IMG/VR virus record: IMGVR_UViG_3300021170_000008
Coordinates: 32,001 to 96,000 of that record
Source: a virus
Length of the DNA stretch: 64,000 nucleotides
Reading direction: 5' to 3' (one strand)
Shown: piece after piece, positions 4,439 to 63,835 of the stretch
Layout: each line of letters opens with the position of its first letter
How positions within the stretch are numbered: the first letter of the stretch is position 1
Notes under the pieces: model-generated
What the model was told of the DNA's origin: nothing
Seen by the model: only the letters and a program-made list of their open reading frames with translations
The model's database searches: none
Position numbers and translations under genes: made by a program

Positions 4439-4801
4439 ACGATATCACCCCAGTTAAACTGCCCCAAATGCAACAAGCTGCTCGAAGCGGCTTCGCATAT
4501 GACCGACGATGTCAGGCCCAGCGAGGGAGACTTTACGCTTTGTATTGGATGCGGTACGGTTTTAGTGTTTGGGGAGAATCTAATCGCGAGATTACCCAAA
4601 GATCACGAGTTAAAAGACTTGCCGAATCACCCTGAGCTATGCCGCGAGATCGCACGGATAAGATCCGCGATCTTGTGGGTTAGTCCCCGTCCCAGAAGTA
4701 GCTCGGCTGGTAGATCCCGGCTTGTCTTGTCGTCAACTGATACCACCCCAGATCGTGCCGGTAATGGCGCTTCGCTAGATTTCGAGCAGCGAAATGCGTG
4801 A
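4435..4801 (+). pseudogene. zinc-ribbon protein with apparent +1 frameshift near 4456
   Basis: The coupled ATG 4435 frame lacks Cys pairs; CPKC and CIGC lie in the +1 frame. Confidence 0.45.
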
Positions 4802-4994
4802 AGCGGATCGCCCACGGCAAAATATCCCTGTCGGAATCGTATGATGCCGACTTCAGATGCATATTGAGCATAGCTGCGCCGACGGCGTCTTCTGCGTCTT
4901 CGTAATTTCTCAATACTCGATACGCTACTTCATGGAGCTTGTTGTATTGCGAGTACGCACGCTCAAGTACTTCACACCCAGATATGTTGGACAT
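4680..4994 (-). CDS. ECF-type sigma-70 region-2-only protein
   Basis: AYRVLRNYEDAEDAV and W...A.N motifs; no region 4 HTH; own TTGACA-17-CAGAAT promoter (5038-5010). Confidence 0.7.
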   Translation of the reverse strand: MSNISGCEVLERAYSQYNKLHEVAYRVLRNYEDAEDAVGAAMLNMHLKSASYDSDRDILPWAIRFTHFAARNLAKRHYRHDLGWYQLTTRQAGIYQPSYFWDGD

Positions 4995-17658: not shown

Positions 17659-17707
17659 CAGCCCTTTCAAGCTCCGCCCCGAAGGCGACTATTTACTAAA
17701 ATAGCGC

Positions 17708-17736
17708 TTGACACGAAGTACGGCAAGATGTATGCT
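17708..17736 (+). promoter_or_regulatory. promoter of the Y RNA-Ro60 operon
   Basis: TTGACA-17-TATGCT; predicted +1 near 17743 equals the 5' end of Y RNA 1. Confidence 0.75.
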
Positions 17737-17742
17737 GGTTAA

Positions 17743-17865
17743 GTTCGGGTCGGCAGGTTAGCCTTATCTGGTTACCTTGGTTCGACTCCAAGACCCACGC
17801 AAGTGGGTTCTAGTAGCTCTGTTAAGGGGTTGCTAGTCGATGGCTGGCCACCCACTTATCCGGAC
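17743..17865 (+). ncRNA. Y RNA-like 1 (YrlA-type permuted tRNA mimic)
   Basis: GTTCGGGT/ATCCGGAC stem; T-arm CTTGG-TTCGACT-CCAAG; ACCCAC-GCAA-GTGGGT; TAGCTC-containing hairpin. Confidence 0.75.
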
Positions 17866-17881
17866 ACCTTTTAAGTTCTCA

Positions 17882-18015
17882 GATTCGGGTCGATAGATTA
17901 GGGTTATCTTTTATCAAAAGAGAGGTCGCTGGTTCGAGTCCAGCCGTGTCTCGCGAGGGGCGCGTAGCTCAGTTGGTAGGGCGCTAAAACGCCCTGGTTA
18001 ACACTTATCCGAGTC
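17882..18015 (+). ncRNA. yrlA: Y RNA-like 2 (canonical YrlA-type)
   Basis: GATTCGGGT/ATCCGAGTC stem; T-arm GCTGG-TTCGAGT-CCAGC, then loop-closed acceptor mimic, then D-arm TAGCTCAGTTGGTAGGGC. Confidence 0.85.
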
Positions 18016-18141
18016 GATACTGCGTAGTTTGACGGTGGTTGATGTGACTTGCCCGGAAACGGGCCGTGGAGCCACGGTTACCTTACTTGGGGCCACGGGT
18101 CTGTCGATCCATCTGCGTCCCGAAATAGGAGAAAAAATCAC

Positions 18142-19767
18142 ATGGCAAAGAACTATCTGGCTGGCGTTTTGAACCCGTTGTCAGTTCCACAGTCCGAGCC
18201 GCTTCCCGGCAAAGAGATGGTCGCCAATAACGCAGGCGGCTACGTGTTCTCTATCTCCACAATGAAGCAGGTAGAGCGCTTCCTGATCTTGGGATCTGAG
18301 GGCGGTTCGTATTACGTCACCGAGCGCAAAATGACGTTAGGCAACGTCAACGCCTTGAAGGCTGCGCTTGCCGCAGATGGACCTGCCGTTGTCCGGCTGA
18401 TCGTCGATATCAGCACTAAGGGACGTGCCCCCAAGAATGACTCCGCGCTGTTTGCTCTGGCATTGGCTGCGAGCCCGAAGTTTGCCGACGCTCGCACCAA
18501 CTCAATGGCGCTTGCCGCTCTGCCGCAGGTTGCACGTACTGGCACGCACTTGTTCCAGTTCGTAAACTTCGTCGAAGGCAACAAGCTCCGTGGTTGGGGC
18601 CGTGGTCTGCGTGCGGCTGTGGCTGACTGGTACCTGTCGAAGACGCCGGACAAGTTGGCGTATCAGGCTGTGAAGTACCAGAACCGCGAGCAGTGGTCGC
18701 ACCGCGATCTGCTTCGGCTGGTCCACGCGAATAATCCGGCGCTCCAGAATGTTTTCCACTGGATCGTGAAGGGTGAGATCGAAGGTCCGGTACCGGCGTT
18801 TATTGAGGCATTCGAAAAGGCCAAGGTCTCAACTGATCCGAAAGAGATCATCAGCCTGATCGAGAGCGCCAACCTGACTCGGGAAATGATCCCGACGCAA
18901 TTCCTGAACGATGTCGCTGTTTGGGACGCATTACTCCAGAAGATGCCGCTGACGGCTATGGTCCGTAACCTGGGTAAGATGACGCAGGTCGGTTTGATCA
19001 AGCCGTTGTCGGACGCATCTGCGCTTGTTAGCGGACGGCTCCGGAACCAGGAATGGCTGAACCGGGCGCGGGTCCACCCGATTGCTCTGCTGATGGCGGC
19101 TTCGACGTACGAGTCTGGCCGTGGTCTGCGTGGCAGTTTGACTTGGGAGGCCGTGAAGCCGGTTGTCGATGCGCTGGATGAAGCCTTCTATCTGGCCTTT
19201 GATAACATCGTTCCAACTGGCAAGCGGTTCTACCTTGGAATCGATGTCAGCGGATCGATGGGCATGGGAAGAGTGGCCGGTACGGCGCTTACCCCACGCG
19301 CAGGCGCGGCAGCGATGGCAATGGTGACGGCTCGCCGAGAGTCCAACTATTACATGGCAGGGTTCCAGGACAAGATGGTCCCGCTCGATATCGGGGCTCG
19401 TGACCGTCTGCCGGATGTTATCCGCAAGACCGATAATCTGCCGTTTGGAGCCACGGATTGCGCTCAGCCGATGATCGATGCGTTGAAGAAGAAGCTCGAA
19501 GCCGATGTCTTCATCGTGTACACCGACAACGAGACCTGGGCCGGTCCAAAGCACCCGACAGCAGCACTTCAGGAGTACCGGGAGAAGATGGGGATCAATT
19601 CGAAGTTGATCGTCTGTGGTTTGACGGCTACCGGCTTCTCTATCGCAGATCCGTCTGATCCTGGGATGCTTGATGTGGTTGGATTCGATACTTCTGTTCC
19701 TCAGGTAATCTCGTCGTTTGTCGGTGGAGGCGAGATGCCGGAGGAACAGGAAGTCGAAGCAGAGTAA
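18142..19767 (+). CDS. rsr: Ro60/TROVE domain RNA-binding protein
   Basis: NNAGGY, RFLILGSEGGSYY, KYQNR..WSHRDLLR, vWA MIDAS DVSGS, YTDNETW; start re-called to ATG 18142 after AGGAG. Confidence 0.95.
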   Translation: MAKNYLAGVLNPLSVPQSEPLPGKEMVANNAGGYVFSISTMKQVERFLILGSEGGSYYVTERKMTLGNVNALKAALAADGPAVVRLIVDISTKGRAPKNDSALFALALAASPKFADARTNSMALAALPQVARTGTHLFQFVNFVEGNKLRGWGRGLRAAVADWYLSKTPDKLAYQAVKYQNREQWSHRDLLRLVHANNPALQNVFHWIVKGEIEGPVPAFIEAFEKAKVSTDPKEIISLIESANLTREMIPTQFLNDVAVWDALLQKMPLTAMVRNLGKMTQVGLIKPLSDASALVSGRLRNQEWLNRARVHPIALLMAASTYESGRGLRGSLTWEAVKPVVDALDEAFYLAFDNIVPTGKRFYLGIDVSGSMGMGRVAGTALTPRAGAAAMAMVTARRESNYYMAGFQDKMVPLDIGARDRLPDVIRKTDNLPFGATDCAQPMIDALKKKLEADVFIVYTDNETWAGPKHPTAALQEYREKMGINSKLIVCGLTATGFSIADPSDPGMLDVVGFDTSVPQVISSFVGGGEMPEEQEVEAE

Positions 19768-19771
19768 TTCA

Positions 19772-19840
19772 AATCGGCGAGCCGATAGGGGATCGTTACC
19801 TATTGCAAAAAAGCGGTCCTCGGCAACTTGTTCGCCGGTT
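19772..19840 (+). ncRNA. Y RNA-like 3 (minimal)
   Basis: AATCGGCGAGC/GTTCGCCGGTT stem; GGGGATCGTT/AGCGGTCCTC inner stem; GTTACCT; A-rich loop. Confidence 0.7.
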
Positions 19841-19846
19841 AATTTT

Positions 19847-19990
19847 TCTACGAGCCGGAGTGGATTCGTTATCTTACTCCAAGCCGAAAGGCAAACAATC
19901 GCTGTCGTTAAACAGCCATGCCGGGTAACTCTGGTATGCTTCACGTCAGAAATGATGTGTTGAAATGGATTCACGACACTTGTTCGTAGA
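19847..19990 (+). ncRNA. Y RNA-like 4 (multi-hairpin payload)
   Basis: TCTACGAGC/GTTCGTAGA stem; GTGGATTCGTT/AATGGATTCAC inner stem; four internal hairpins. Confidence 0.7.
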
Positions 19991-19998
19991 GTAATCTG

Positions 19999-20068
19999 GC
20001 TTCGGGCCGAAGTGGGATGGTTATCTTTCTGAAAAAAAATATGCCATCCCGCACATACTTGTCCGAGC
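19999..20068 (+). ncRNA. Y RNA-like 5 (minimal)
   Basis: TCGGGC/GTCCGA stem; GTGGGATGGT/GCCATCCCGC inner stem; GTTATCT; A8 loop. Confidence 0.7.
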
Positions 20069-20093: not shown

Positions 20094-20123
20094 TTGACAA
20101 TAAGTATCCATCAATGCTAAACT
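20094..20123 (+). promoter_or_regulatory. sigma70-type promoter
   Basis: TTGACA-18-(TGn)TAAACT. Confidence 0.6.
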
Positions 20124-20170
20124 TGAAGCTGTCCACAATTTCCAAGATAGAAGGTTGGTACCTATACCAC

Positions 20171-21703
20171 ATGGCAATAACCAGAAAAACGAAAGAGACG
20201 CTCGTGGACGATCTCGGCCAAGACTTTGAACTCCAGTTCAAGGAAGTGGGCCTGGACCGTCACGCGAAAGGAAAGATCGCCCTGCCAGAGAATATGACTC
20301 TGTCGGAGGGGATTTACTGGCTCAAACAGAAGCAGGCAGACGAAGAAACCATGGTCGTCGTCAACGAAAAAATTGACGGCTATCCGGTCGATGTCGCCTA
20401 TTGCCTTCAGTTGGCCGTCCAGGATATGTTCGGCTTCCGGGAACTGAAGACCATCCCGCCGGAGCACTTCTTCGACAAAGAGAAGCCGCCGACATTCATG
20501 ACCGTCCCGACCGACCACAAAGGCGGAACGGTTGAAGTATTCCTGGGTAGGTTCTCGGTGCCGGGCGCAGATGGATATCTTCAGACTGGCCGCATTAACA
20601 ACGACGCTCTGATCATCCAAGGAAAGCTACGTCAGAAGAACATCCCGATCCTCCGGGCGCTGATCGCCAAGACCAAGGAAACGCTGGCCAAGCAATCGCT
20701 CTACAAGGGCAAGTCGTTCCGCGTGAAGTTCAATGAAACGCTGGACGGCAAAATTATCGACAATCCGGAATTCATCGACGTAAGCAAGGCACCAGCCCGG
20801 CTGACGTTGAATGCCGAGACGGCGGAACTGGTCCGGGCGGCTCTGTGGACCCCGATTGAGCGCAGCAAGCAAACCAAGCATTTTGGGATGCCGCTCAAGC
20901 GTGGTGTTCTACTTTACGGCCACTACGGCACCGGCAAATCCCTGACGGCGCATGAGACGGCTCATCTGTGCTCGCAGCACGGCTGGACGTTCATCTATGT
21001 TAAGGATGTCACCGACCTGCGCGAGATGTATTCGTTCGCGGCGCGGTATTCGCCTGCGGTGCTCTTCGCTGAAGACATCGATCTGGTGATCAAGCATGAA
21101 GGCGACGACGGATCTGACTCCGTTAATGAACTGAACAACGTGCTCGACGGCGTGGACAGCAAAGACAAAGACATCATTGTGGTCTTGACCACAAATCATG
21201 TGGAAAAGATCCCGGTGTCTCTGCTCCGTCCTGGCCGGTTCGACGCCATCGTCGAGTACTTCCCGCCTGACCGGGCGACGGCTGCGGCGTTGGTTGAGCA
21301 GTACGCAGGCGATGAAATCGACCGGGACGACTGGGATTGCGAAGAAGTCGGAAATGTCCTGGCCGGTAACATCCCGGCGACGATCCATGAAGTCGTCAAG
21401 CGAGCCAAGCTGTTTTCGATTGGCCGCTACCCGGCAGACTACCGGGGCAAGCTCCTGCTATCGACATCGGACATCATCAATTCGATGAAGAGTATGAGCA
21501 AGCACCTGGATCTTCTGAACACGAAGCCGTCCGAGAACCCGTCGTTCACCGAAGTCCTGGGTGGAGCAGTCGGCGAGAGTATCGCAAAGAATCTCGCCGT
21601 AGCTCTAGACGTTACAAAGCGTGGCGATAACTGGGGTGAAAAGCGCTCCAAAATAGCGGAGGAACGTATCCTGGCTCCGCTCGAAAACGGCAGCAGCAAG
21701 TAG
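20171..21703 (+). CDS. AAA+ ATPase
   Basis: KRGVLLYGHYGTGKS Walker A, FAEDID Walker B, LTTN, LLRPGRFD. Confidence 0.9.
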   Translation: MAITRKTKETLVDDLGQDFELQFKEVGLDRHAKGKIALPENMTLSEGIYWLKQKQADEETMVVVNEKIDGYPVDVAYCLQLAVQDMFGFRELKTIPPEHFFDKEKPPTFMTVPTDHKGGTVEVFLGRFSVPGADGYLQTGRINNDALIIQGKLRQKNIPILRALIAKTKETLAKQSLYKGKSFRVKFNETLDGKIIDNPEFIDVSKAPARLTLNAETAELVRAALWTPIERSKQTKHFGMPLKRGVLLYGHYGTGKSLTAHETAHLCSQHGWTFIYVKDVTDLREMYSFAARYSPAVLFAEDIDLVIKHEGDDGSDSVNELNNVLDGVDSKDKDIIVVLTTNHVEKIPVSLLRPGRFDAIVEYFPPDRATAAALVEQYAGDEIDRDDWDCEEVGNVLAGNIPATIHEVVKRAKLFSIGRYPADYRGKLLLSTSDIINSMKSMSKHLDLLNTKPSENPSFTEVLGGAVGESIAKNLAVALDVTKRGDNWGEKRSKIAEERILAPLENGSSK

Positions 21704-56628: not shown

Positions 56629-56656
56629 TTCTATTATTGTCGGACGGTGGGAGTAG

Positions 56657-56729
56657 TGCCGGTGGAGGGACTTGCACCCACACTTGGACGGCTTTTAAGG
56701 CCGTTTTCTCTGCGTTGGAATACACCGGC
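56657..56729 (-). tRNA. tRNA-Leu(TAA), short variable loop
   Basis: ACGGC-CTTAAAA-GCCGT arm. Confidence 0.8.
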
Positions 56730-56735
56730 GAGATG

Positions 56736-56827
56736 TGGTGGGCGACGAGGGAGTTGAACCCCCAGCGGGTCCGAAGGACCTCCAGTTCTACAGACTGGCG
56801 CGGGCTACCGATACCCGCAAGACGCCC
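56736..56827 (-). tRNA. tRNA-Tyr(GTA)
   Basis: CCAGT-CTGTAGA-ACTGG; long V arm; CCA. Confidence 0.8.
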
Positions 56828-56828
56828 A

Positions 56829-56915
56829 TGGCGGAAGCGGCGTGACTCGAACACGCATGACCTATTCGGTCCCGATATTAGCAGTATCGTGGGATACCAT
56901 TTACCCGACGCTTCC
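56829..56915 (-). tRNA. tRNA-Ser(GCT)
   Basis: CGATA-CTGCTAA-TATCG; V arm; CCA. Confidence 0.85.
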
Positions 56916-57383
56916 GTTTGAAATGGCAGGGCTGGCAAGGGTCGAACTCGCAATCGCTGTTTTGGAAGCAGCTACCGTCACCGTCCGGTCAGCCCTATAA
57001 ATTCTACGCTTTCTGTTTGCCTCCGCACGGAAAACCATACAGATATCACACTTGCATTTCCGCTTGAATGCAAAGGACCAGCCACCATGTGTTGCCTTCT
57101 GATTATCCCCATTTTCTCTTGTCTTTTCCAGATGGCACGGCTTGCATAATAACTGGCACTTCAAAAGCTCAGCCTCAAATAAATCCTTTCTCTTCTGCCA
57201 CATCCTTCCGATGTCGCCAACCTTAGTGGCCGGATCGATATGGTCAAAATCAAGATTCTTGGTAGCCCCACATCGGACGCATTTGCCTCCTAATTTAGCT
57301 AGCGCGTACTGCCTGCGGCGCTCCCTCCACTTCGGTAGATAATCCCGAAGATATTCCTGCATTTTCTTGCGAGTGTAGGCCAT
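56901..57383 (-). CDS. HNH endonuclease in tRNA array
   Basis: LGGKC..CG...L.FDHIDP..K, KCQLLC..CH; leaderless promoter TTGCGC-17-TAAACT. Confidence 0.85.
   Translation of the reverse strand: MAYTRKKMQEYLRDYLPKWRERRRQYALAKLGGKCVRCGATKNLDFDHIDPATKVGDIGRMWQKRKDLFEAELLKCQLLCKPCHLEKTRENGDNQKATHGGWSFAFKRKCKCDICMVFRAEANRKRRIYRADRTVTVAASKTAIASSTLASPAISNGSVG
56924..56996 (-). tRNA. tRNA-Trp(CCA)
   Basis: TTCCAAA loop; CCA. Confidence 0.75.
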
Positions 57384-57425
57384 GCGGAAGTTTATCACGC
57401 AGGCACTCACCGCGCAAATTAAAAG

Positions 57426-57519
57426 TGGAGGAGGACCAGGGTCTCCAACCCTGACACCCGTTTAGGGTCTGCTGGGTTCGGGCCAGTGGCCGTTAGGGCG
57501 AATCTCGGCTTAGTCCTCC
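57426..57519 (-). tRNA. atypical tRNA-Ser(CGA)
   Basis: GGAGGAC acceptor; CC-CGA-AC loop; T-loop TTGGAGA; CCA. Confidence 0.55.
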
Positions 57520-57520
57520 A

Positions 57521-57598
57521 TGGTACCCGCCCTCGGATTCGAACCGAGACTGTTCAGTTTCTAAAACTGAGGACTCCTGCCAGTTGGTCTAGGCGGGC
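57521..57598 (-). tRNA. tRNA-Leu(TAG), short variable loop
   Basis: TCAGT-TTTAGAA-ACTGA; CCA. Confidence 0.85.
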
Positions 57599-57617
57599 AA
57601 AATGAATGTCAAAGATC

Positions 57618-57691
57618 TGGAGAGCTAGCGCAGAGTCGAACTGCGTACGTCTCTTTTGCAGAGAGATCCCTGGCCGGTCGGGGTCTAGCTC
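57618..57691 (-). tRNA. tRNA-Cys(GCA)
   Basis: TCTCT-CTGCAAA-AGAGA; U73; CCA. Confidence 0.8.
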
Positions 57692-57796
57692 AAACTGAGT
57701 TTTTGGGATTTAATAACTTGAGAGTTGCAGTCGGGATGACCACAAACAGGAACGCGACAGGAGGGATAAAATGTGTGCGCGGTTCATGTTTAGATA

Positions 57797-58012
57797 TTAC
57801 TTCAATACTTGCGGCGCGTCAAGCATTTTCTTTCTCGTATAGTACTCCCTAGCCGAGAAGTCCATCCCTAAGGCACGCTTAATAACTTCCTCTAGGGGGC
57901 GTAACCCTTGATAGTGGTCTCGCACCGGGAACAATATCTCCTTCCCGTCTACGCACCACATCCACTCGGCCTGCGGCAAATCATTCTTACGGATAACGAC
58001 ACGCGGCTTCAT
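57797..58012 (-). CDS. hypothetical protein
   Basis: MKPRVVIRK start; packed operon. Confidence 0.5.
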   Translation of the reverse strand: MKPRVVIRKNDLPQAEWMWCVDGKEILFPVRDHYQGLRPLEEVIKRALGMDFSAREYYTRKKMLDAPQVLK

Positions 58013-58016
58013 TCTA

Positions 58017-58256
58017 CTAGCCCGGCTCGTGGCCCGTCCCTTCGCAGCGTGGACAATCATACCTTCCATGCACGCACGCTAGGAACCCACTACCGGCGCA
58101 GCGCTGGCAGGCGATTGTCTGGATTGTGTTTTCGATAGGCGGATCTGGGTACTTCGGGTCGCGATGGATCTTGGGAACGATCACCCGCGTCGTCTTGACC
58201 CGGCCTACCCGCTCACGGGCTATCCATTTGATTTCCTTGGGGACGTTGCGCTTCAT
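58017..58256 (-). CDS. small basic protein with CxxCxGxG zinc finger
   Basis: CQRCAGSG and CPRCEGTG. Confidence 0.55.
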   Translation of the reverse strand: MKRNVPKEIKWIARERVGRVKTTRVIVPKIHRDPKYPDPPIENTIQTIACQRCAGSGFLACVHGRYDCPRCEGTGHEPG

Positions 58257-58423
58257 TCTGAATCTCTATCGATCACCACGACCGTAACTCCCTCTTCTGA
58301 CATCAGAATGAAATTACGCGCCTTCGTATCCGGATCAAAGAACCGGTCTCGCTCCTGGGGGAATACGTGATGCAGTAGAGTTGCCCAGGCAGCATACGGC
58401 AGCCTTACGTGAATTTTAGCCAC
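58253..58423 (-). CDS. hypothetical protein
   Basis: GTG start overlapping upstream stop. Confidence 0.45.
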   Translation of the reverse strand: MAKIHVRLPYAAWATLLHHVFPQERDRFFDPDTKARNFILMSEEGVTVVVIDRDSE

Positions 58424-58844
58424 GCTCTTTCTCCAGCATCGCCTTGATGAACGGCTCAATACCGCCGTCGAGTACCGGTTCCAGCGGCAATTCAACGCCG
58501 GTGCGATGGTCAAGCACCGTGCCACGCTTGAAGTTGTACGTCCTGATCTTTTCGCCCTTCTCGGCGGTCTGGCGCGTTCTTTCTACCGGCACTCCAGCCA
58601 TTCTTCTGGCGCATTCTATCCGGTGCCAGTCCTGGAACTCCTTTGATGCTACCAGACGCTTGAATGCAGCTTCCCGGTTCTTGGTATTGCTGCGGTGTTC
58701 ACGGCCTTCGCCACGGGCTCCGGATGCTTTGTGGATCAGACGTACGCCGCTGTTGGACGTGTCTTTACCTCCGCCTCCAGCCCCTCCTACCGAGAAGGTC
58801 TGAATCTAGAAGTCTTTCTTGGTGACACTAAAAAGCAGTTCCAT
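58416..58844 (-). pseudogene. class I release factor-like protein (RF-1 domain) with GGG for GGQ and in-frame TAG at codon 13
   Basis: MELLFSVTKKDF*IQTFSVGGAGGGGKDTSNSGVRLIH...RS..KNRE.A...IRTYNF...V.DHRTG. Confidence 0.75.
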
Positions 58845-59053
58845 TACGCCCTCGCCGCCATTCTCTCCGCTCTCCTGGCTGCTGCCGCAGACGACCGGAT
58901 CTGCCCTACGTGAAACCCGTTACAGAACGGACACCGATACGCCCTGAACTTGGCCTTCTTGAGCTTATGTAAGCTCTTAGCCCGTATCTGGGCGTCCTCC
59001 AGGGTGTGGTGGATCTTCTTCCTGCCGCATTGTCTTTGCTGAAGGTCTGTCAT
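58844..59053 (-). CDS. small zinc-finger phage protein
   Basis: C..K..H and AYRCPFC.GFH. Confidence 0.65.
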   Translation of the reverse strand: MTDLQQRQCGRKKIHHTLEDAQIRAKSLHKLKKAKFRAYRCPFCNGFHVGQIRSSAAAARRAERMAARA

Positions 59054-59058
59054 AAATT

Positions 59059-59134
59059 TGGCTGGGAGTCTTGGGATCGAACCAAGGACCTTCTCTTTCA
59101 GAGAGAGACGCTCTGCCGACTGAGCTAACCCCCA
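59059..59134 (-). tRNA. tRNA-Gln(CTG)
   Basis: TCTCT-CTCTGAA-AGAGA; CCA. Confidence 0.9.
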
Positions 59135-59361
59135 GTAAGACTATCTTTTTCTGTATCGAACGGCTCCATCGGTTCCGTGATCGACGTGTCTTCGCACTCT
59201 TCGTAGTTGCCTACCCGGCGCAGGTACTCCTTGCCTCCGTCCACGGAGATATTTCCGCACTTACAGGACCGGAAGTCATGTACCGACTTCGACTCGATCT
59301 CTTCCCCGCACTTCAAGCACTTGACGCTGTTGCGGATGATTTTCTCTCGCGGTATTTTCAT
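59125..59361 (-). CDS. small zinc-binding phage protein
   Basis: N..KCLKCG..IES...HDF..C.CG...VDGG.EY.RR. Confidence 0.7.
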   Translation of the reverse strand: MKIPREKIIRNSVKCLKCGEEIESKSVHDFRSCKCGNISVDGGKEYLRRVGNYEECEDTSITEPMEPFDTEKDSLTGG

Positions 59362-59750
59362 TTGTATTTACCTACCGCCAGCCGCAATTTAGCGTTTTCC
59401 GTACGTAGGGCCAGCAGTTCGTGCCAAGTAAACTCAGCGTTCATCTTATCAGAGATGAAAGATCCTTCCAGATACGCAATCCACGCCTTGTCCGATAGCT
59501 GCTTGTTTAACTTGCGAAGTCTTTTGGATTCCTTCAGCCAGTCTGATGCCCTCTTAAAAACTCTGTCTATATAACGCTGATCAACACTCTCCTGACGGGT
59601 ATGGCAAATCCCCTGAGCCGCGTGCTTCCCTTTGAATTTACAGTCAGCCTGAACACAGAAGCTCTCCCAGATCTCGCGCTGGAACACGCGGGTCTCGGTC
59701 TTGTGCTTCCCGCCGTGCTTGATGATCTTGACTGGTTTTTCTTGTTTCAT
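59358..59750 (-). CDS. hypothetical protein
   Basis: ORF overlapping next start. Confidence 0.5.
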   Translation of the reverse strand: MKQEKPVKIIKHGGKHKTETRVFQREIWESFCVQADCKFKGKHAAQGICHTRQESVDQRYIDRVFKRASDWLKESKRLRKLNKQLSDKAWIAYLEGSFISDKMNAEFTWHELLALRTENAKLRLAVGKYK

Positions 59751-59755
59751 AAATT

Positions 59756-59785
59756 TGGTAGCGCCGGAGCGACTCGAACGCTCAT
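59756..59785 (-). pseudogene. isolated tRNA 3' half (T arm + acceptor strand + CCA)
   Basis: GAGCG-TTCGAGT-CGCTC-CGGCGCT-A-CCA. Confidence 0.65.
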
Positions 59786-59790
59786 AAAAT

Positions 59791-59867
59791 TGGTGGCTGG
59801 AATCGGTTTCGAACCGCCTTTCAGCGTTTTCAGCGCTGCTCTGTCACCAGACCAGATCCATCCAGCC
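59791..59867 (-). tRNA. tRNA-Phe(GAA), atypical D arm
   Basis: CAGCG-CTGAAAA-CGCTG; CCA. Confidence 0.7.
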
Positions 59868-60390
59868 CTTGCTTAACCAAACGAGAATATATAGCATCGA
59901 CCGCCGTCAGCATATCCGCGTTAGTTATCACGTTACCGTGCTCTATCCTATGACAGTTAGCGCACAACAATCGACACTTCTTTATCTCAGCCGCAATAGC
60001 ACTCCACGATCTACTTGCCGAAGTCCCAACAGTAAAATCCTTGCCTCCGACATGATGGAAATCAAGAGCCGCTAGCGGGACCACGGAACTACACCTAGTA
60101 CAGCTTCCTCCCATTATCTTAACGGCTGCCATTTTTGTAGCAGTGCGCCTGATCTTGGATATACATGCTCCGCAACGCCTTGACCTCCCACGACAGTCTT
60201 TCCCGCAGAAGCGGCATGACCCACTAATTTCTCTGCTCTTTCTGTCCTTCTTAGGGATGTGGATTCTTTTAGTATTATGAGATAGATACGGAGAGCAATC
60301 CAAGCAATACTTACGATCCCTGAACCATTTTCTCTTTCCATCAATCACCATAGTTGACGGGAAGATAGATTGACACTTACGGCACACCAT
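59830..60390 (-). CDS. HNH endonuclease in tRNA array
   Basis: GG.C..C...AALDFHH, KC.LLCANCHR..H. Confidence 0.85.
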   Translation of the reverse strand: MVCRKCQSIFPSTMVIDGKRKWFRDRKYCLDCSPYLSHNTKRIHIPKKDRKSREISGSCRFCGKDCRGRSRRCGACISKIRRTATKMAAVKIMGGSCTRCSSVVPLAALDFHHVGGKDFTVGTSASRSWSAIAAEIKKCRLLCANCHRIEHGNVITNADMLTAVDAIYSRLVKQGLDGSGLVTEQR

Positions 60391-60406
60391 GCACTATTGT
60401 ATCACA

Positions 60407-60853
60407 TCATGCCTTGACCCCGTTGGCTACAGCGCTATTGTCAGTAACAATTCTTTCGAAGATCTTCAGCCCATCCGTCTGAGCATTGAACTTCATGTTC
60501 TTGCTGCCTGGGCTCGTTCCTGACCAGATCAAAATTAACCCGCCGTCGCCTTTCGCCCACTCCGACATCTGCATATTCCGAATGATTCCGGCTTGTTTCC
60601 CGAACTTTTTCCAGTCGGCCTTCATGACCTCAGGCTTCACTTTAAGTTCGTACCGAAGCCACGCTTCAGCTACCTCGTCTACGCCTTTGGCCCCGCCGAC
60701 GCAGAACTTGCTGTTCACCCAGCCATCAAGCTCGTCCAGGCCCTGTCTGATGTACTCGTAGATCAACTGGCGCTCGCCGATCACGTCGGACATGCGCTTG
60801 CCTTCTTTCTCGGCCCCGATCCAGCGCGACCCGGCGATAACTATACGCCGCAT
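60407..60853 (-). CDS. DUF2493 / SLOG (YspA-like) protein
   Basis: IVIAGSR, GGAKGVD, ADW...GK.AG.IRN..M, W.G.SPGS; start re-called to 60853. Confidence 0.8.
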   Translation of the reverse strand: MRRIVIAGSRWIGAEKEGKRMSDVIGERQLIYEYIRQGLDELDGWVNSKFCVGGAKGVDEVAEAWLRYELKVKPEVMKADWKKFGKQAGIIRNMQMSEWAKGDGGLILIWSGTSPGSKNMKFNAQTDGLKIFERIVTDNSAVANGVKA

Positions 60854-61404
60854 AGCCTGCGCCAAAGCAAAACAGCAAGACCGGTCAGTACAAGAGCCGC
60901 AGACCCAGGCTCCGGAACATCCGTAACATAGTACGGAAATAATCTGATCCAACCTCCGCCGTCGCATTCCGAACAAGACCCGGAAACAGATCCAGCTATC
61001 GTAAACTGCTCTCCAGAATAGAACTCATACTCGGGCATACCGTGCGGTCCAATGCCGACATTGGGTAGACTGACACTGAATCCAGACCGTCCCCATATTG
61101 CCGTGGCATCTTGCGCTGCGTATAGCTCAATCATCCCAGGCAATCCAGAAGTCGTCACGATGTCCATCTCAATTGAGAACGACGCTGACCCCGAAGCCTC
61201 CGTACATTGATCGAAAGCATTACACCAAGACGACAGTAAGACTGTAGCTACCGGCAGGTTCGAAAACGGATCAACTTCAGCGTAAGCGCTGGCGGTAGCG
61301 CCTGATCCTGACGCCTGCTGAGACGTGTTAAACACAGCAGGGCCAAGTGAAACCGTATCGGCCAACAGCGGCAACGAAAGCGCCAGTAGCAGCATGGCCT
61401 TCAT
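60841..61404 (-). CDS. PEP-CTERM sorting domain protein
   Basis: Signal peptide; VPEPGS + TM helix + RR; leaderless promoter TTGACA-17-GATAAT. Confidence 0.85.
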   Translation of the reverse strand: MKAMLLLALSLPLLADTVSLGPAVFNTSQQASGSGATASAYAEVDPFSNLPVATVLLSSWCNAFDQCTEASGSASFSIEMDIVTTSGLPGMIELYAAQDATAIWGRSGFSVSLPNVGIGPHGMPEYEFYSGEQFTIAGSVSGSCSECDGGGWIRLFPYYVTDVPEPGSAALVLTGLAVLLWRRLCGV

Positions 61405-61514
61405 ATCTTTATTATCGCTCTACGCAAAGTATCTGTCAAGACTAATCAGGCCGTCCGCCGGGCTTCCCGCTAGGTTAGGGCTGGGTAAGCAACAACGTGA
61501 CGGCCTGAACTTGT

Positions 61515-61590
61515 TGGCGTCCCTGCGGAGAATTGAACTCCGATTGTCGGCTTGAGAAACCGATTTCCTTGCCGTTTAGAAGACAGGGAC
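61515..61590 (-). tRNA. tRNA-Glu(CTC)
   Basis: TCGGT-TTCTCAA-GCCGA; CCA. Confidence 0.85.
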
Positions 61591-61591
61591 G

Positions 61592-61666
61592 TGGCGGGCG
61601 CGAGCAGAATCGAACTGCCGTCGAGGCATAGACAGTGCCCCATCTTGGCCACTAGAAGACGCGCCC
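61592..61666 (-). tRNA. tRNA-Asp(GTC)
   Basis: GGGCA-CTGTCTA-TGCCT; CCA. Confidence 0.85.
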
Positions 61667-61672
61667 TAAACT

Positions 61673-61747
61673 TGGTGCTCGGCTCCGGACTTGAACCGGA
61701 ATTGTCAGATTCGTAATCTGAAGACCTATCCATTGATCGAACCGAGC
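61673..61747 (-). tRNA. tRNA-Arg(ACG)
   Basis: TCAGA-TTACGAA-TCTGA; CCA. Confidence 0.9.
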
Positions 61748-61748
61748 A

Positions 61749-61822
61749 TGGTACCGCCAGCGAGAATCGGACTCGCGTTGCAGGAGTGAAAATCCTGATT
61801 CCTACCACTAGAAGATGGCGGC
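61749..61822 (-). tRNA. tRNA-Glu(TTC)
   Basis: CAGGA-TTTTCAC-TCCTG; CCA. Confidence 0.85.
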
Positions 61823-61832
61823 ATAAATCTAA

Positions 61833-61906
61833 TGAGCCCGGAGAGAATCGAACTCTCGATGTACGGATTAAAAATCCGTTGCTCGGCCAACGTGAGCGAC
61901 GGGCTC
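61833..61906 (-). tRNA. tRNA-Lys(TTT)
   Basis: ACGGA-TTTTTAA-TCCGT; no encoded CCA. Confidence 0.85.
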
Positions 61907-61913
61907 GCAAAAC

Positions 61914-61991
61914 TGGTGGACCGCCTCGGACTCGAACCGAGAATCGCCGGAGTAAGAATCCGGAGCTTTAATCCAATTTAGCTAACGGTCC
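61914..61991 (-). tRNA. tRNA-Lys(CTT)
   Basis: CCGGA-TTCTTAC-TCCGG; CCA. Confidence 0.9.
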
Positions 61992-61997
61992 AAACTT

Positions 61998-62076
61998 TGG
62001 TGCCTCTTCTTGGATTCGAACCAAGGGCCTACCGATTATGAGCCGGTTGCTCTGGGCCAGACTGAGCTAAAGAGGC
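61998..62076 (-). tRNA. tRNA-Met/Ile2(CAT)
   Basis: ACCGG-CTCATAA-TCGGT; CCA. Confidence 0.9.
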
Positions 62077-62080
62077 AAAA

Positions 62081-62155
62081 TGGTTGGGAGTGACAGACTC
62101 GAACTGTCGTAGTAAGATTCAAAATCTTACGTCCTAGCCGCTGAACGAACTCCCA
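62081..62155 (-). tRNA. tRNA-Gln(TTG)
   Basis: TAAGA-TTTTGAA-TCTTA; CCA. Confidence 0.9.
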
Positions 62156-62162
62156 TCAAAAT

Positions 62163-62239
62163 TGGTGCGCCTGGGAGGAATCGAACCCCCGTAGTCTCCG
62201 GTAGAAACGGAGCGCATAAATCCGCTCTGCCACAGGCGC
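62163..62239 (-). tRNA. tRNA-Arg(TCT)
   Basis: CTCCG-TTTCTAC-CGGAG; CCA. Confidence 0.85.
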
Positions 62240-62243
62240 TTAA

Positions 62244-62337
62244 TGGCCACCGACTGGGCGACTCACACCCTCGACTCTCGCCGGGGTAACTTGCGGCATA
62301 CGATCCGCATGGCGACGATCCCAGCATCTAGTGGCCA
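62244..62337 (-). ncRNA. unidentified structured RNA in a tRNA-sized slot
   Basis: Nested stems TGGCCACT/GGTGGCCA, CTGGG/CCCAG, TCGCC/GGCGA, TGCGG/CCGCA. Confidence 0.5.
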
Positions 62338-62340
62338 ACT

Positions 62341-62414
62341 TGGTCCCTTCGGAACGAGTCGCACGTTCGTCGGTCGGTTATCAGCCGACTGCATTGCTCT
62401 TATGCTACGAAGGG
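62341..62414 (-). tRNA. tRNA-Ile(GAT)
   Basis: GTCGG-CTGATAA-CCGAC; CCA. Confidence 0.8.
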
Positions 62415-62419
62415 GAAAT

Positions 62420-62495
62420 TGGTACCGGTATCCAGACTCGAACTGGAATTCCTGCCTTCGGAGGACAGTGCCCTGATCCCTTGGACGATACCGGC
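62420..62495 (-). tRNA. tRNA-Arg(CCG)
   Basis: CTGTC-CTCCGAA-GGCAG; CCA. Confidence 0.85.
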
Positions 62496-62501
62496 GAAAC
62501 T

Positions 62502-62575
62502 TTTAGGCGTCGAGATTTGAACTCGAATTTGCCCCTTAGGAGGGGGCCGTCGTATCCGGGTTGGACCACGCCCAA
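62502..62575 (-). tRNA. tRNA-Arg(CCT), weak acceptor stem
   Basis: GCCCC-CTCCTAA-GGGGC; no CCA. Confidence 0.65.
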
Positions 62576-62577
62576 CT

Positions 62578-62653
62578 TGGTACCGGGGTAGAGGATCGAA
62601 CTCTACTGCAACTGTGTGTAGGACAGTGGCCCTCTCCAGAAGGCGACCCCGGC
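62578..62653 (-). tRNA. tRNA-Val(TAC)
   Basis: ACTGT-CCTACAC-ACAGT; CCA. Confidence 0.8.
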
Positions 62654-62660
62654 ATTGAAA

Positions 62661-62750
62661 TGGCTCACGGGGCAGGATTCGAACCTGCGGCGGGGACTGA
62701 GTCCCTCCTGATTAACAGTCAGGCTCCTGCTACCACTCGGATACCCGTGA
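62661..62750 (-). tRNA. tRNA-Asn(GTT) with long variable arm
   Basis: CCTGA-CTGTTAA-TCAGG; V arm GGGAC-TCA-GTCCC; CCA. Confidence 0.8.
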
Positions 62751-62757
62751 ATAAAAT

Positions 62758-62832
62758 TGGTCGGGGTAGGTGTTCTCGACTCACCGGCCTCAGCTTCCCA
62801 AAAGCCGCGCTCTGCCTCTGAGCTATACCCCG
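62758..62832 (-). tRNA. tRNA-Pro(TGG), atypical T loop
   Basis: CGGCT-TTTGGGA-AGCTG; CCA. Confidence 0.75.
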
Positions 62833-62836
62833 AAAT

Positions 62837-62911
62837 TGGTTGCGGAGGGGAGAATCGAACTCCCGATCCCGTGCGCCCGAGGCACGTACCATACCACTTG
62901 GCTACTCCGCA
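62837..62911 (-). tRNA. tRNA-Pro(CGG)
   Basis: CGTGC-CTCGGGC-GCACG; U1-A72; CCA. Confidence 0.8.
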
Positions 62912-62917
62912 AAAACT

Positions 62918-62981
62918 TGATGCCGGGGTGCCGGATTTTCACCGACCGCCCATGGTTGAAACCGCGTGCTCCGACCCCGGC
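62918..62981 (-). ncRNA. D-armless tRNA-like RNA
   Basis: 8-bp GCCGGGGT/ACCCCGGC stem + T-like arm GTCGG-TGAAAAT-CCGGC. Confidence 0.5.
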
Positions 62982-63032
62982 GCATTGGACTGCATTCTAT
63001 TGTCAAACAACTCAGCCCAACCAACTAATGAG

Positions 63033-63143
63033 CTATGTGTACTTCTTAACCCAGCGGCACACGCCGCAGATGATGCAGCGTAACTTCTCTACGTTCTCCG
63101 TCACCTTGCCGCATCGCTTGCAGAAGATCGCTTCTTGATCCAT
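63033..63143 (-). CDS. 36-aa zinc-ribbon peptide
   Basis: CKRCG and CIICG; below ORF-track cutoff. Confidence 0.45.
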   Translation of the reverse strand: MDQEAIFCKRCGKVTENVEKLRCIICGVCRWVKKYT

Positions 63144-63149
63144 AACTTT

Positions 63150-63225
63150 TGGGAGGCTATGTCAGGATCGAACTGACGTAAACGGTTCCACAGACCGTCC
63201 CCTGAACCACTCGGGTAATAGCCCC
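63150..63225 (-). tRNA. tRNA-His(GTG)
   Basis: ACGGT-CTGTGGA-ACCGT; G-1/C73; CCA. Confidence 0.85.
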
Positions 63226-63236
63226 GCATTCAAACT

Positions 63237-63316
63237 TGGTGGAGCACTGGAGTAACGATCTCCACTGAAATTCCGCATTGCAAGTGCGGCGACCACCCCA
63301 TGCAGTCCCGTGCCCC
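63237..63316 (-). tRNA. tRNA-Ala(TGC), atypical T loop
   Basis: CCGCA-CTTGCAA-TGCGG; G3-U70; CCA. Confidence 0.75.
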
Positions 63317-63321
63317 AAAAC

Positions 63322-63399
63322 TGGAGCGAGTGGAGCGATTTGAACGCTCGGCCTGTTCGTTGGCAACGAACCGCTCTAGCCAGACTGAGCTACACCCGC
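63322..63399 (-). tRNA. tRNA-Gly(GCC)
   Basis: GTTCG-TTGCCAA-CGAAC; U73; CCA. Confidence 0.9.
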
Positions 63400-63792
63400 C
63401 GAATACATTCCCGGTATACGCTTAGGATTTCTCTCCCGCTGCGCCTTCAATCTCTGCCGTTGATGTTCTCTACACAATTCGCACCGGCAGCCACGCCTAT
63501 ACGATGCGTGCGTTCCGTGTACAGCATCCCTACGAAATTCCTCCGCCGTCTTTTTCTCATGGCACTTCCTGCACAGGACCTGACACTTCTTTAATTCCTC
63601 AGTCCTAGTACTTTCCTTCCATGACCAGATCCTGTGCGACACTTTCGTCTTTGGGTCGATGTGGTCAACTTCAAGCCTTTCCCATGACCCACACCGCCTG
63701 CACGGCCCGTTTGCGGAAAGCCATTCATTCCGACGTTTCCGAATCCATTTGAGCCTATATTCTTTTTGCTCCACCGGATCAATGTAAGGCAT
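63376..63792 (-). CDS. HNH endonuclease in tRNA array
   Basis: PC..CGS...LEVDHIDP, KCQVLC..CH, HGT..SY..GCRC; leaderless promoter TTGACT-17-TAACAT. Confidence 0.85.
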   Translation of the reverse strand: MPYIDPVEQKEYRLKWIRKRRNEWLSANGPCRRCGSWERLEVDHIDPKTKVSHRIWSWKESTRTEELKKCQVLCRKCHEKKTAEEFRRDAVHGTHASYRRGCRCELCREHQRQRLKAQRERNPKRIPGMYSAGVAQSG

Positions 63793-63835
63793 GGAGCGAT
63801 GTTACAGGACAAACCCGACAGAGTCAATCTCAAAA

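What the first reader, a model, noticed from the sequence alone, without database searches (positions are those of the whole stretch)
17708..20068. Phage Ro60 flanked by five modular Y RNA-like genes
Seen: five separate RNAs surround the Ro60/TROVE gene (17743-17865, 17882-18015, 19772-19840, 19847-19990, 19999-20068). All share a 5' CGRGYCGR, an internal TTAYCT at the end of a second stem, and a 3' ACTTRTYCG. The terminal helix covaries (CGGGT/ATCCG twice, CGAGC/GTTCG twice, CGGGC/GTCCG once) around a fixed G-U pair. The promoter's predicted +1 falls on the first base of RNA 1. Payloads differ: two permuted tRNA mimics (T arm, loop-closed acceptor, D arm), one four-hairpin module and two minimal A-rich loops. 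Known: bacterial Ro60 (Rsr) binds Y RNAs through a bulged terminal helix, YrlA mimics tRNA, and the distal part tethers effectors such as PNPase; Ro60/YrlA also occur in some phages. Inference: one phage Ro60 is loaded with a family of interchangeable adaptor RNAs, which could act as decoys for tRNA-cleaving defences or recruit different RNA decay/repair enzymes.
Basis: partly seen in the sequence, partly recalled or inferred. Interest (0 to 1): 0.92.

Follow-up and report, generated by a model that had tools for sequence, protein, structure and literature searches.

The report
Phage Ro60 with five Y RNAs
An uncultured 106-kb soil phage carries the gene for the ring-shaped RNA-binding protein Ro60 flanked by five (perhaps six) small RNA genes that share Ro60's known docking stem but carry different cargo domains. 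This is a richer version of a known protein-RNA partnership, and it turns out to be common among phages and bacteria with this type of Ro60.

Summary
All share one scaffold: a terminal helix, CG(A/G) internal loop, second helix, UUAYCU, and 3' ACUU(G/A). The scaffold covaries strongly across 41 distinct sequences.

RNA2 is a clear YrlA-type tRNA mimic and RNA1 a degenerate one. RNA3 and RNA5 are minimal hairpins. RNA4's four-hairpin cargo had no short-word BLAST match in the 21 other loci held then.

These are Y RNA genes, probably one operon whose products dock on Ro60 and link it to host factors. That function is inferred.

The array is not unique. Relatives carry 1-7 copies per Ro60 locus, including cultured phages (Forza 7, Cali 3) and bacterial MAGs. 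This scan has also reported similar arrays on other DNA.

Phage Ro60 with two bound Y RNAs is published, so this is a new variant of a known kind. The decoy idea is untested and partly disfavoured, because the mimics have no anticodon arm.

A sixth, loop-closed copy of the docking stem lies in the Ro60 leader.

The parts
17708..17736 (+). Sigma-70-like promoter (TTGACA-17-TATGCT) of the Y RNA/Ro60 operon; predicted +1 near 17743.
   Evidence: 10 of 12 matches. No metatranscriptome contig lies upstream of 17761, while contigs cover the operon (weak evidence).
17743..17865 (+). Y RNA 1: open docking scaffold (8-bp terminal helix, CGGCA loop, 8-bp second helix, UUAUCU) with a degenerate YrlA-type cargo. 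T arm and 6-bp loop-closed acceptor are clear; the D arm is poor.
   Evidence: Exact motif. Fold z -3.4. R2 places both ends exactly but scores weakly, 12.9 bits, E 0.63. T-loop motif found. No Rfam YrlA match.
17882..18015 (+). Y RNA 2: YrlA-type tRNA mimic. It has a V hairpin, T arm, 7-bp acceptor closed by GCGA, and a D arm with GG.
   Evidence: Rfam YrlA 33.5 bits, E 7.4e-5, model positions 24-84, below the gathering score of 69. R2 E 1.6e-4. Motifs.
18033..18082 (+). Candidate sixth, loop-closed (circularly permuted) docking module in the Ro60 leader. Order: second-helix 3' strand, ACUU, GCCCG-GAAA-CGGGC, CG, second-helix 5' strand, UUACC. It is either a separate RNA or an operator on the Ro60 mRNA.
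   Evidence: One-mismatch motif hit. Descriptor hit (but the descriptor was partly derived from this site). The same closed module recurs in 10 independent Ro60 loci. The single-sequence fold is not significant, z -1.1.
18142..19767 (+). Ro60 (TROVE + vWA), 541 aa. AGGAG lies 9 nt before the ATG. The MIDAS DxSxS motif is intact (IDVSGSMG at codons 367-374).
   Evidence: Pfam. PDB matches: RO60 9nen 3.6e-129, Xenopus Ro 1yvp 1.4e-126, Deinococcus Rsr 2nvo 5.3e-120. Sequence read.
19772..19840 (+). Y RNA 3: minimal hairpin Y RNA (YrlB-like) with an 11-bp terminal helix and a UUACCU...A-rich loop.
   Evidence: Single-sequence model R1, built from RNA5 alone, finds it at E 0.004. R2 E 3e-10, but it was in R2's training set. 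Fold z -2.9.
19847..19990 (+). Y RNA 4: the same scaffold carrying a four-hairpin cargo without T-loop or D-loop signatures; an orphan cargo.
   Evidence: R2 E 1.6e-6; it was not in the training set. Fold z -4.6. No blastn-short match of the cargo in the 21 other loci held at that point.
19999..20068 (+). Y RNA 5: minimal hairpin Y RNA. It is closest to the canonical Ro-binding sequence (GGGCCGAAG...GGUUAUCU...ACUUGUCCG).
   Evidence: Rfam nematode sbRNA family 27.6 bits, E 0.0075, and Deinococcus Y RNA 22.9 bits, E 0.49, both full length and below gathering scores. It was the seed of R1 and R2.

Best explanation
The locus is a phage-borne Ro60/Y RNA module. One promoter (17708-17736) probably drives a single precursor in the order Y1-Y2-leader-ro60-Y3-Y4-Y5. 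Host RNases trim this precursor to five small RNAs of about 65-145 nt.

Each RNA pairs its own 5' and 3' ends into the conserved bulged helix. The 5' strand of that helix (G-G/A-G-C/U-C-G-A/G) is the phage version of the GGUCCGA / GNCGAA element that Ro60 contacts in frog and bacterial Y RNAs. Ro60 docks there, which also protects the RNA ends.

The variable distal part is the adaptor end: two tRNA-elbow mimics, one four-hairpin module and two short U/C-then-A-rich loops. By analogy with Deinococcus, Salmonella and Thermus phage phiLo, it ties the Ro60 ring to host partners such as PNPase or other exoribonucleases. This would retarget host RNA decay or quality control during infection. The phage encodes no such enzyme itself.

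Shown here: gene identity, the shared scaffold, its covariation, and its obligate same-strand neighbourhood with Ro60.
Inferred: co-transcription, processing, Ro60 binding, partner recruitment, and the benefit to the phage.
For: - Motif and fold statistics in the window.
- R2, built mainly from other loci, finds RNA4 and RNA2 significantly and places RNA1's ends exactly.
- At E <= 1 across the window and 17 IMG/VR Ro60 loci there are 49 hits, all on the Ro60 strand and all flanking Ro60. In six cultured phages 17 of 18 hits are on the Ro60 strand. In 15 MAG loci all 36 hits are.
- Covariation: 89% of cells are paired against 59.5% in shuffles and at most 47% when slid, and 17 of 17 pairs show compensatory changes.
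- RNA-first test: an exact 16-base handle motif hits 42 IMG/VR stretches. Of these, 28 are full Y RNAs or lie next to Ro60, and 21 are on a contig with a same-strand Ro60: 20 within about 3.3 kb, most under 1 kb, plus L046, whose contig holds Ro60 in L048.
- Rfam gives YrlA sub-threshold matches on RNA2 and on relatives, and nematode sbRNA matches on the minimal RNAs, two of them above the gathering score in relatives.
- Ro60 is full length with an intact MIDAS motif.
- Soil metatranscriptome contigs at 100% identity, from a different study than the DNA source, bridge Y1-Y2-leader, ro60-Y3, Y3-Y4-Y5 and Y5-downstream. None lies in the 1.7 kb upstream.
- Published: Ro60 binds the 5' strand motif, and a conserved YUAY follows it in YrlA (PMC4201824). 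phiLo Ro60 binds two phage Y RNAs and forms a ternary complex with host PNPase (PMC12135203).
Against: - No direct evidence of discrete small RNAs, of their ends, or of Ro60 binding.
- The RNA-seq evidence consists of assembled contigs from a run chosen because it holds this stretch. It has no strand or end information, and DNA carry-over is not excluded.
- None of the five reaches any Rfam gathering score, and the metazoan Y_RNA family gives no match at E <= 10.
- RNA1 scores only 12.9 bits with R2.
- Only RNA5 matches GNCGAAN0-1G exactly.
- No terminator was found after RNA5.
- The partner of any cargo is unknown.
Confidence: 0.78

Rival explanations
1. The array is mostly the product of recent tandem duplication. 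Only one or two copies (for example RNA2 and RNA5) are working Y RNAs, and the rest are decaying or merely add dosage, so the different cargoes have no distinct roles.
For: Neighbouring copies share identical terminal helices (RNA1/2, RNA3/4). RNA1 has a poor D arm, a weak R2 score and no YrlA match. RNA4's cargo has no relative in the loci searched. Other loci also reuse one helix sequence across neighbouring copies, for example L004.
Against: All five keep perfect scaffold pairing and all three motifs, and fold better than shuffles. Arrays of 3-7 with mixed cargo classes persist across loci whose Ro60 proteins are only 40-55% identical. That argues for selection on multiplicity.
Confidence: 0.12
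2. The tRNA-like RNAs act mainly on their own. They serve as decoys or sponges for host tRNA-directed enzymes or defence nucleases, and Ro60 only stabilises them.
For: RNA1 and RNA2 carry tRNA elbow elements. The phage invests heavily in tRNAs, with 25 genes. YrlA RNAs are substrates of tRNA-modifying enzymes and, in M. smegmatis, of RNase P (PMC4201824). A Ro60-like protein of phage Bas63 counters the ppl defence (PMC11482910).
Against: There is no anticodon arm, so anticodon nucleases have no target (sequence; YrlA structure preprint 10.1101/312249). Three of the five RNAs have no tRNA features. The conserved element in every copy is the Ro60 dock, not the cargo.
Confidence: 0.07
3. The elements are cis-acting stem-loops (processing or stability signals, or terminator-like insulators) for the ro60 mRNA, not independent RNAs.
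For: They flank the coding region closely, with 5-16-nt spacers. No classical terminator was found. Metatranscriptome contigs bridge them to ro60.
Against: The scaffold matches the Ro-binding helix of established Y RNAs in sequence and structure. In relatives, arrays of up to 7 extend more than 1.5 kb from Ro60 and are interleaved with tRNA genes. Cargo domains mimic tRNA.
Confidence: 0.03

Closest known systems
Thermus phage phiLo Ro60 with Yrl1 and Yrl2 (PMC12135203)
   Same: A phage-encoded Ro60 with Y-RNA-like genes next to it on the same strand. It has a CGAA-type motif in a stem-bulge-stem. Binding and a ternary complex with host PNPase were shown there. Neither phage has its own PNPase.
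   Different: phiLo has two RNAs, both upstream. Here there are five (plus a leader module) on both sides, with three cargo classes. The phiLo protein is so divergent that it is not among the PDB sequence matches of this Ro60.
Bacterial Rsr with YrlA and YrlB (Salmonella, M. smegmatis; Rfam RF02553; PMC4201824; 10.1101/312249)
   Same: RNA2, and less clearly RNA1, has the YrlA order: dock, YUAY, V, T arm, closed acceptor, D arm, dock. RNA3 and RNA5 resemble the hairpin-type second Y RNA (YrlB/Yrn2). They lie within 4 kb of Ro60 on the same strand, which was the criterion used in that work.
   Different: They fall below the Rfam gathering score (33.5 against 69 bits). There are five copies rather than two. 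There is no rtcBA repair operon. RNA4's cargo has no counterpart.
Deinococcus radiodurans Rsr-Yrn1/Yrn2-PNPase (RYPER)
   Same: The 5' strand of RNA5 aligns full length with the Deinococcus Y RNA model. The proposed tethering mechanism is taken from this system.
   Different: The score is weak (22.9 against 80 bits). The cargo is unrelated. The partner would have to be a host enzyme.
Metazoan Y RNAs and nematode sbRNAs (Rfam RF00019, RF01656)
   Same: They share the terminal bulged helix with GG(U/G)CCGA and the UUAUC element after the second helix. The Rfam sbRNA model matches the minimal RNAs full length, and above its gathering score in two relatives. There are several Y RNAs per genome.
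   Different: There is no RF00019 match and no 3' U-tract. The loop is very short. The genes are tandem and co-transcribed rather than Pol III units.
Listeria phage CKA15: three highly expressed non-coding regions upstream of an Rsr-like gene (PMC12282133)
   Same: Several abundant RNAs lie within 2 kb of a phage Ro60-like gene on the same strand and were proposed to be Y RNAs.
   Different: No shared scaffold or structure was described there. Here the scaffold is defined and covarying, but expression is only hinted at.

Membership tests
Ro60 / TROVE protein | TROVE (HEAT-repeat ring) domain followed by a vWA domain with a MIDAS motif | tested here: met
   PF05731 at 8.8e-49 and PF25045 at 1.3e-66. 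DxSxS is read at codons 368-372. E-values of 1e-120 to 1e-129 to solved Ro60/Rsr structures over nearly the full length.
Y RNA in the broad sense (Ro60-bound small RNA) | 5' and 3' ends pair into a conserved helix that carries the Ro60 contact sequence | tested here: met
   All five fold this way. The helix covaries in 41 distinct relatives. The 5' strand G(G/A)G(C/U)CG(A/G) resembles the GGUCCGA / GNCGAA cited in PMC4201824.
Y RNA in the broad sense (Ro60-bound small RNA) | Encoded next to Ro60 on the same strand (within 4 kb, the criterion of Chen et al. 2014) | tested here: met
   All five lie within 400 nt of the gene on the + strand. The same holds for all 49 hits, 17 of 18 and all 36. 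The genome has no strong copy elsewhere: a filtered whole-genome search finds only the locus, and an unfiltered search of the 64-kb window gives no off-locus match better than E 0.12.
Y RNA in the broad sense (Ro60-bound small RNA) | Physically bound and stabilised by Ro60 | not testable with these tools
   Needs RIP or EMSA.
Y RNA in the broad sense (Ro60-bound small RNA) | Expressed as a discrete small RNA | tested here: inconclusive
   Metatranscriptome contigs cover all five at 100% identity, but contigs give no ends, strand or level, and the run was selected using this stretch.
YrlA (Rfam RF02553) | Score at or above the curated gathering score (69 bits) | tested here: not met
   RNA2 scores 33.5 bits, a partial match to model positions 24-84. 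RNA1, 3, 4 and 5 have no match at E <= 10. Relatives, including mycobacteriophage Cali, also stay below the threshold.
YrlA (Rfam RF02553) | tRNA-like domain: T arm, loop-closed acceptor-like stem and D arm, preceded by YUAY/V | tested here: met
   RNA2 has all elements, aligned by the Rfam model. RNA1 has the T arm and closed acceptor, but its D arm is degenerate. The feature is therefore met for RNA2, partly met for RNA1 and absent in RNA3-5.
YrlA (Rfam RF02553) | GNCGAAN0-1G motif near the 5' end | tested here: inconclusive
   Exact only in RNA5 (GCCGAAG). RNA4 has GCCGGAG, RNA2 and RNA3 have G(U/C)CGAUAG, and RNA1 has GUCGGCAG.
Nematode sbRNA (RF01656) and metazoan Y_RNA (RF00019) | Rfam gathering score | tested here: not met
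   RNA5 scores 27.6 against 38 bits for RF01656, and there is no RF00019 match. Relatives L030 1899-1969 (44.9 bits) and L066 2768-2840 (40.2 bits) do pass RF01656.

The most novel reading that the evidence does not exclude
The Ro60 docking helix is a portable tag that these phages graft onto different RNAs in either topology. This phage would then have six tagged RNAs. The sixth is a loop-closed (circularly permuted) dock in Ro60's own leader, through which Ro60 senses or regulates its own mRNA or is loaded co-transcriptionally. Relatives place the same closed dock where the anticodon arm of an otherwise complete, open-ended tRNA body would be. That is an un-permuted YrlA with free acceptor ends, which RNase P, CCA-adding enzyme or even synthetases could handle. 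It would link Ro60 directly to the tRNA pool, and it looks like the missing intermediate between tRNA and YrlA.
Probability: 0.3. Interest if true: 0.75.

Novelty: new variant of a known kind. Interest (0 to 1): 0.5.

Why it matters
What the different Y RNAs of one organism do is still an open question, even in humans. Phage and bacterial loci that keep 3-7 Y RNAs with one fixed Ro60 dock and swappable cargo domains are natural experiments in cargo function.

Several of these loci sit in cultured, tractable phages: Gordonia phage Forza and Mycobacterium phages Cali and Sparky. In those records the RNAs are unannotated, and at least once one is annotated as a tRNA.

The covariance model built here recovers candidates that Rfam's YrlA threshold misses. 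The locus also adds to growing evidence that phages bring their own Ro60 particles to reshape host RNA decay or evade defence.

Tried and rejected
- MAFFT of RNA3 with RNA5 misaligned the 3' strand, so I seeded a model from RNA5 alone.
- That single-sequence model (R1) found only RNA3 in the window. The cargo-bearing copies needed the 19-sequence model R2 run with filters off.
- Rfam at gathering thresholds finds none of the five.
- Rfam RF00019 gives no match even at E <= 10.
- A conserved protein partner was not found. The downstream AAA ATPase (phrog_10440) recurs next to only one other array (L006) among 23 loci, and the upstream methyltransferase and glycosyltransferase genes recur in none.
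- Phage-encoded RNA repair or decay partners are absent from the complete 106-kb genome: no RtcB, RNA_ligase (Rnl2-type) or RNase PH/PNPase domain.
- RNA4's cargo has no blastn-short match in the 21 other loci held at that point.
- Sinorhizobium phage Phosso has a Ro60 gene but no R2 hit at E <= 0.5.
- The over-long tRNA hit in L014 (2676-2813) first looked like a tRNA-embedded dock. It is an artefact that spans two tandem YrlA copies.
- The strict closed-dock regex mostly returned trivial junctions between tandem copies.
- About 14 of the 42 motif-only hits in IMG/VR are probably chance half-sites.
- Stretches of the window without metatranscriptome contigs (for example 18170-18820) say nothing.
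- Two reviews (PMC10870794, PMC6047535) are not held, so I could not check what they say about Y RNA copy number.
Full report
**What is there.** The window is part of a 106,134-bp IMG/VR virus record that CheckV rates as complete. It carries phage hallmark genes: DnaB-like helicase, portal, large terminase and major head protein. It also has 25 tRNA genes at 56.6-63.9 kb on the minus strand.

At 18142-19767 (+) lies a 541-aa Ro60, with Pfam TROVE at 8.8e-49 and vWA_Ro60 at 1.3e-66. It matches RO60 (9nen), Xenopus Ro60 (1yvp) and Deinococcus Rsr (2nvo) over nearly its full length, with E-values of 1e-120 to 1e-129. The DxSxS MIDAS motif is intact (read).

**The five RNAs.** With one mismatch allowed, 0.42 matches are expected and no shuffle reaches six. 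Each of the five is closed by ACTTRTYCG.

All five fold into the same architecture, with z-scores of -2.4 to -4.6:
- a terminal helix;
- a 4-5-nt 5' loop starting with CG;
- a second helix of 8-10 bp ending in UUAYCU;
- an 8-nt 3' loop ending in ACUU.

However, identical helices belong to neighbouring copies, so within the window the "covariation" may simply record two duplications.

**Independent support from other loci.** A protein-first scan gave 17 IMG/VR loci whose Ro60 is 41-55% identical. A model seeded from RNA5 alone (R1) pulled out 19 minimal RNAs next to those genes. On these, 92% of cells are paired against 62% in shuffles, and 14 of 17 pairs show compensatory changes.

The model rebuilt from them (R2) finds 49 elements across the window and those loci. 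All are on the Ro60 strand and all flank Ro60. On 41 distinct sequences, 89% of cells pair against 59.5% when shuffled and at most 47% when slid, and all 17 pairs show double changes.

With filters off, R2 gives these results in the window:
- RNA4 at E 1.6e-6 and RNA2 at E 1.6e-4, neither of which was in the training set;
- no other match in the window better than E 0.12.

**Copy number in relatives.**

| Source | R2 candidates |
|---|---|
| Gordonia phage Forza | 7 |
| Mycobacterium phage Cali | 3 |
| Mycobacterium phage Sparky | 2 |
| Gordonia phage Cashline | 2 |
| Streptomyces phage Comrade | 2-3 |
| Sinorhizobium phage Phosso | 0 |
| 15 bacterial MAG loci | 36 in total, up to 7 per locus |

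None of these RNAs is annotated in the phage records. All 36 MAG hits are on the Ro60 strand.

**RNA-first test.** An exact 16-base handle motif hits 42 IMG/VR stretches. Of these, 28 are full Y RNAs or lie next to Ro60, and 21 are on a contig with a same-strand Ro60. Twenty are within about 3.3 kb, most under 1 kb; the other is L046, whose contig holds Ro60 in L048.

**Relation to curated families.** None of the five reaches an Rfam gathering score. At relaxed thresholds:
- RNA2 matches YrlA across T arm, closed acceptor and D arm (33.5 bits, E 7.4e-5);
- RNA5 matches the nematode Y-RNA homologues (sbRNA, 27.6 bits, E 0.0075) full length;
- RNA5 also matches the Deinococcus Y RNA model (22.9 bits) full length.

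In relatives, sub-threshold full-length YrlA matches recur. The sbRNA model passes its own threshold twice. The UUAYC element corresponds to the conserved YUAY of YrlA, and the 5' strand corresponds to the GNCGAA/GGUCCGA Ro contact (PMC4201824).

**Cargoes.**
- RNA2 is a full YrlA-type tRNA mimic with a 7-bp closed acceptor.
- RNA1 keeps the T arm and closed acceptor but has a poor D arm.
- RNA3 and RNA5 are minimal hairpins of the YrlB/Yrn2 kind.
- RNA4 has four hairpins without tRNA signatures and no relative in the 21 other loci held at that point.

**Expression and operon.** A sigma-70-like promoter ends 6 nt before RNA1. No terminator or promoter was found until a second promoter at 20094. 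Spacers between copies are 6-16 nt.

A soil metatranscriptome from a different study than the DNA source yields 100%-identical contigs. They bridge RNA1-RNA2-leader, ro60-RNA3, RNA3-RNA4-RNA5 and RNA5-downstream. None lies in the 1.7 kb upstream. This is only a hint. The evidence consists of contigs without strand or end information, and the run was chosen using this stretch.

**Mechanism.** The best-supported reading is a Ro60/Y RNA particle system. Ro60 docks on the conserved helix, and the distal domain ties it to host partners. The phage has no PNPase-type, RtcB or Rnl2-type gene of its own, so any partner would be a host enzyme, as shown for phage phiLo and host PNPase (PMC12135203).

The decoy idea is weakened for anticodon nucleases, because the mimics have no anticodon arm. 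A defence-related role remains possible; phage Bas63's Ro60-like gp130 counters the ppl defence (PMC11482910).

**Novelty.** The following are already published:
- YrlA in 22 phages, and at least two Y RNAs in three bacteria (PMC4201824);
- two bound Y RNAs in phage phiLo (PMC12135203);
- three suspected Y RNAs in Listeria phage CKA15 (PMC12282133).

I found no paper in the held library that describes arrays of five or more with one scaffold and mixed cargoes. The array is not unique to this phage, and this scan has reported similar arrays near Ro60-like genes on other DNA. I therefore rate it a new variant of a known kind, of moderate interest.

**Leader and closed docks.** The sixth motif hit lies in the 126-nt Ro60 leader. 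Its partner strand is upstream, joined by a GAAA loop, which makes a loop-closed, circularly permuted dock (18033-18082). The single-sequence fold gives no support.

A descriptor derived from this site and two relatives was then applied to independent loci. It finds 23 matches against about 1.5 in shuffles. Fourteen of them lie in ten Ro60 loci, all on the Ro60 strand. Most sit in tRNA-shaped bodies with open acceptor stems. Six of these bodies pass Rfam's tRNA threshold as 120-130-nt "tRNAs". These look like un-permuted YrlA. The published view is that YrlA resembles a circularly permuted tRNA (10.1101/312249). Whether the window's leader element is an operator, a sixth RNA or a relic remains open.

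Noticed in passing
window 18016-18141 (core 18033-18082): The Ro60 leader holds a loop-closed, circularly permuted copy of the docking module (ACUU-GCCCG-GAAA-CGGGC-CG...UUACC). It is flanked by outer stems at about 18022-18035 and 18101-18117, which partly compete with the module's second helix. It could be an autoregulatory Ro60 site, a sixth RNA or a relic.
   Followed up: partly
L002 2737-2856; L005 2545-2666; L026 2933-3052; L031 1827-1950; L051 12455-12326 (-); L058 8250-8379; also L039, L052, L065, L080: Relatives encode tRNA-shaped RNAs of 120-130 nt with a normal open acceptor stem, D arm and T arm. The anticodon arm is replaced by a loop-closed Ro60 dock plus a V hairpin. This is the un-permuted counterpart of YrlA. 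They pass Rfam's tRNA threshold, but ARAGORN did not call the two it was run on (L002, L005). I found no description of them in the held papers.
   Followed up: partly
L024 (Gordonia phage Forza, MK814760) 4722-4849: The annotated 68-nt tRNA-Gln (locus 4725-4792) lies inside a Y RNA match and is not called by ARAGORN. It is probably the tRNA-like domain of a YrlA-type RNA. Forza has seven Y RNA candidates interleaved with its tRNA and tmRNA genes.
   Followed up: partly
L041 2747-2817; L056 6301-6366; L057 7705-7643 (-); L071 2445-2516; L074 6968-7029: Full minimal Y RNA matches lie in viral contigs with no close Ro60 homologue in the held flanks. Either Ro60 lies elsewhere in those genomes, or these phages carry an orphan Y RNA that could use a host Ro60.
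   Followed up: partly
L030 1899-1969; L066 2768-2840: Minimal Y RNAs next to bacterial and phage Ro60 pass the Rfam gathering score of the nematode sbRNA family RF01656. This shows how close this prokaryotic scaffold is to eukaryotic Y RNA homologues.
   Followed up: no
window 20094-21703: A second promoter (TTGACA-18-TAAACT with an extended TG) precedes an AAA ATPase gene (phrog_10440, function unknown). Its likely start is at 20171, not the longest-ORF start at 20114. A 36%-identical homologue sits just upstream of the Y RNA array in L006 (979-2280) but in no other locus.
   Followed up: partly
window 56656-63909 (-), and relatives L001, L007, L010, L011, L015, L023, L024, L025: The phage has 25 tRNA genes. 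In about 8 of 21 related phage loci, Ro60 and its Y RNAs sit within 3 kb of a same-strand tRNA array. This hints at a link between phage Ro60 particles and phage tRNA supply or quality control.
   Followed up: no
window 17686-17707: An imperfect 9-bp inverted repeat (GCGACTATTT-ACTA-AAATAGCGC) abuts the -35 box of the Y RNA/Ro60 promoter. It may be an operator or the end of the upstream methyltransferase transcript.
   Followed up: no
L014 2309-2880: This locus has five tandem Y RNAs, three of them YrlA-type. The Rfam tRNA model bridges two neighbouring YrlA copies and reports a spurious 138-nt tRNA. This is a likely annotation trap in such arrays.
   Followed up: yes
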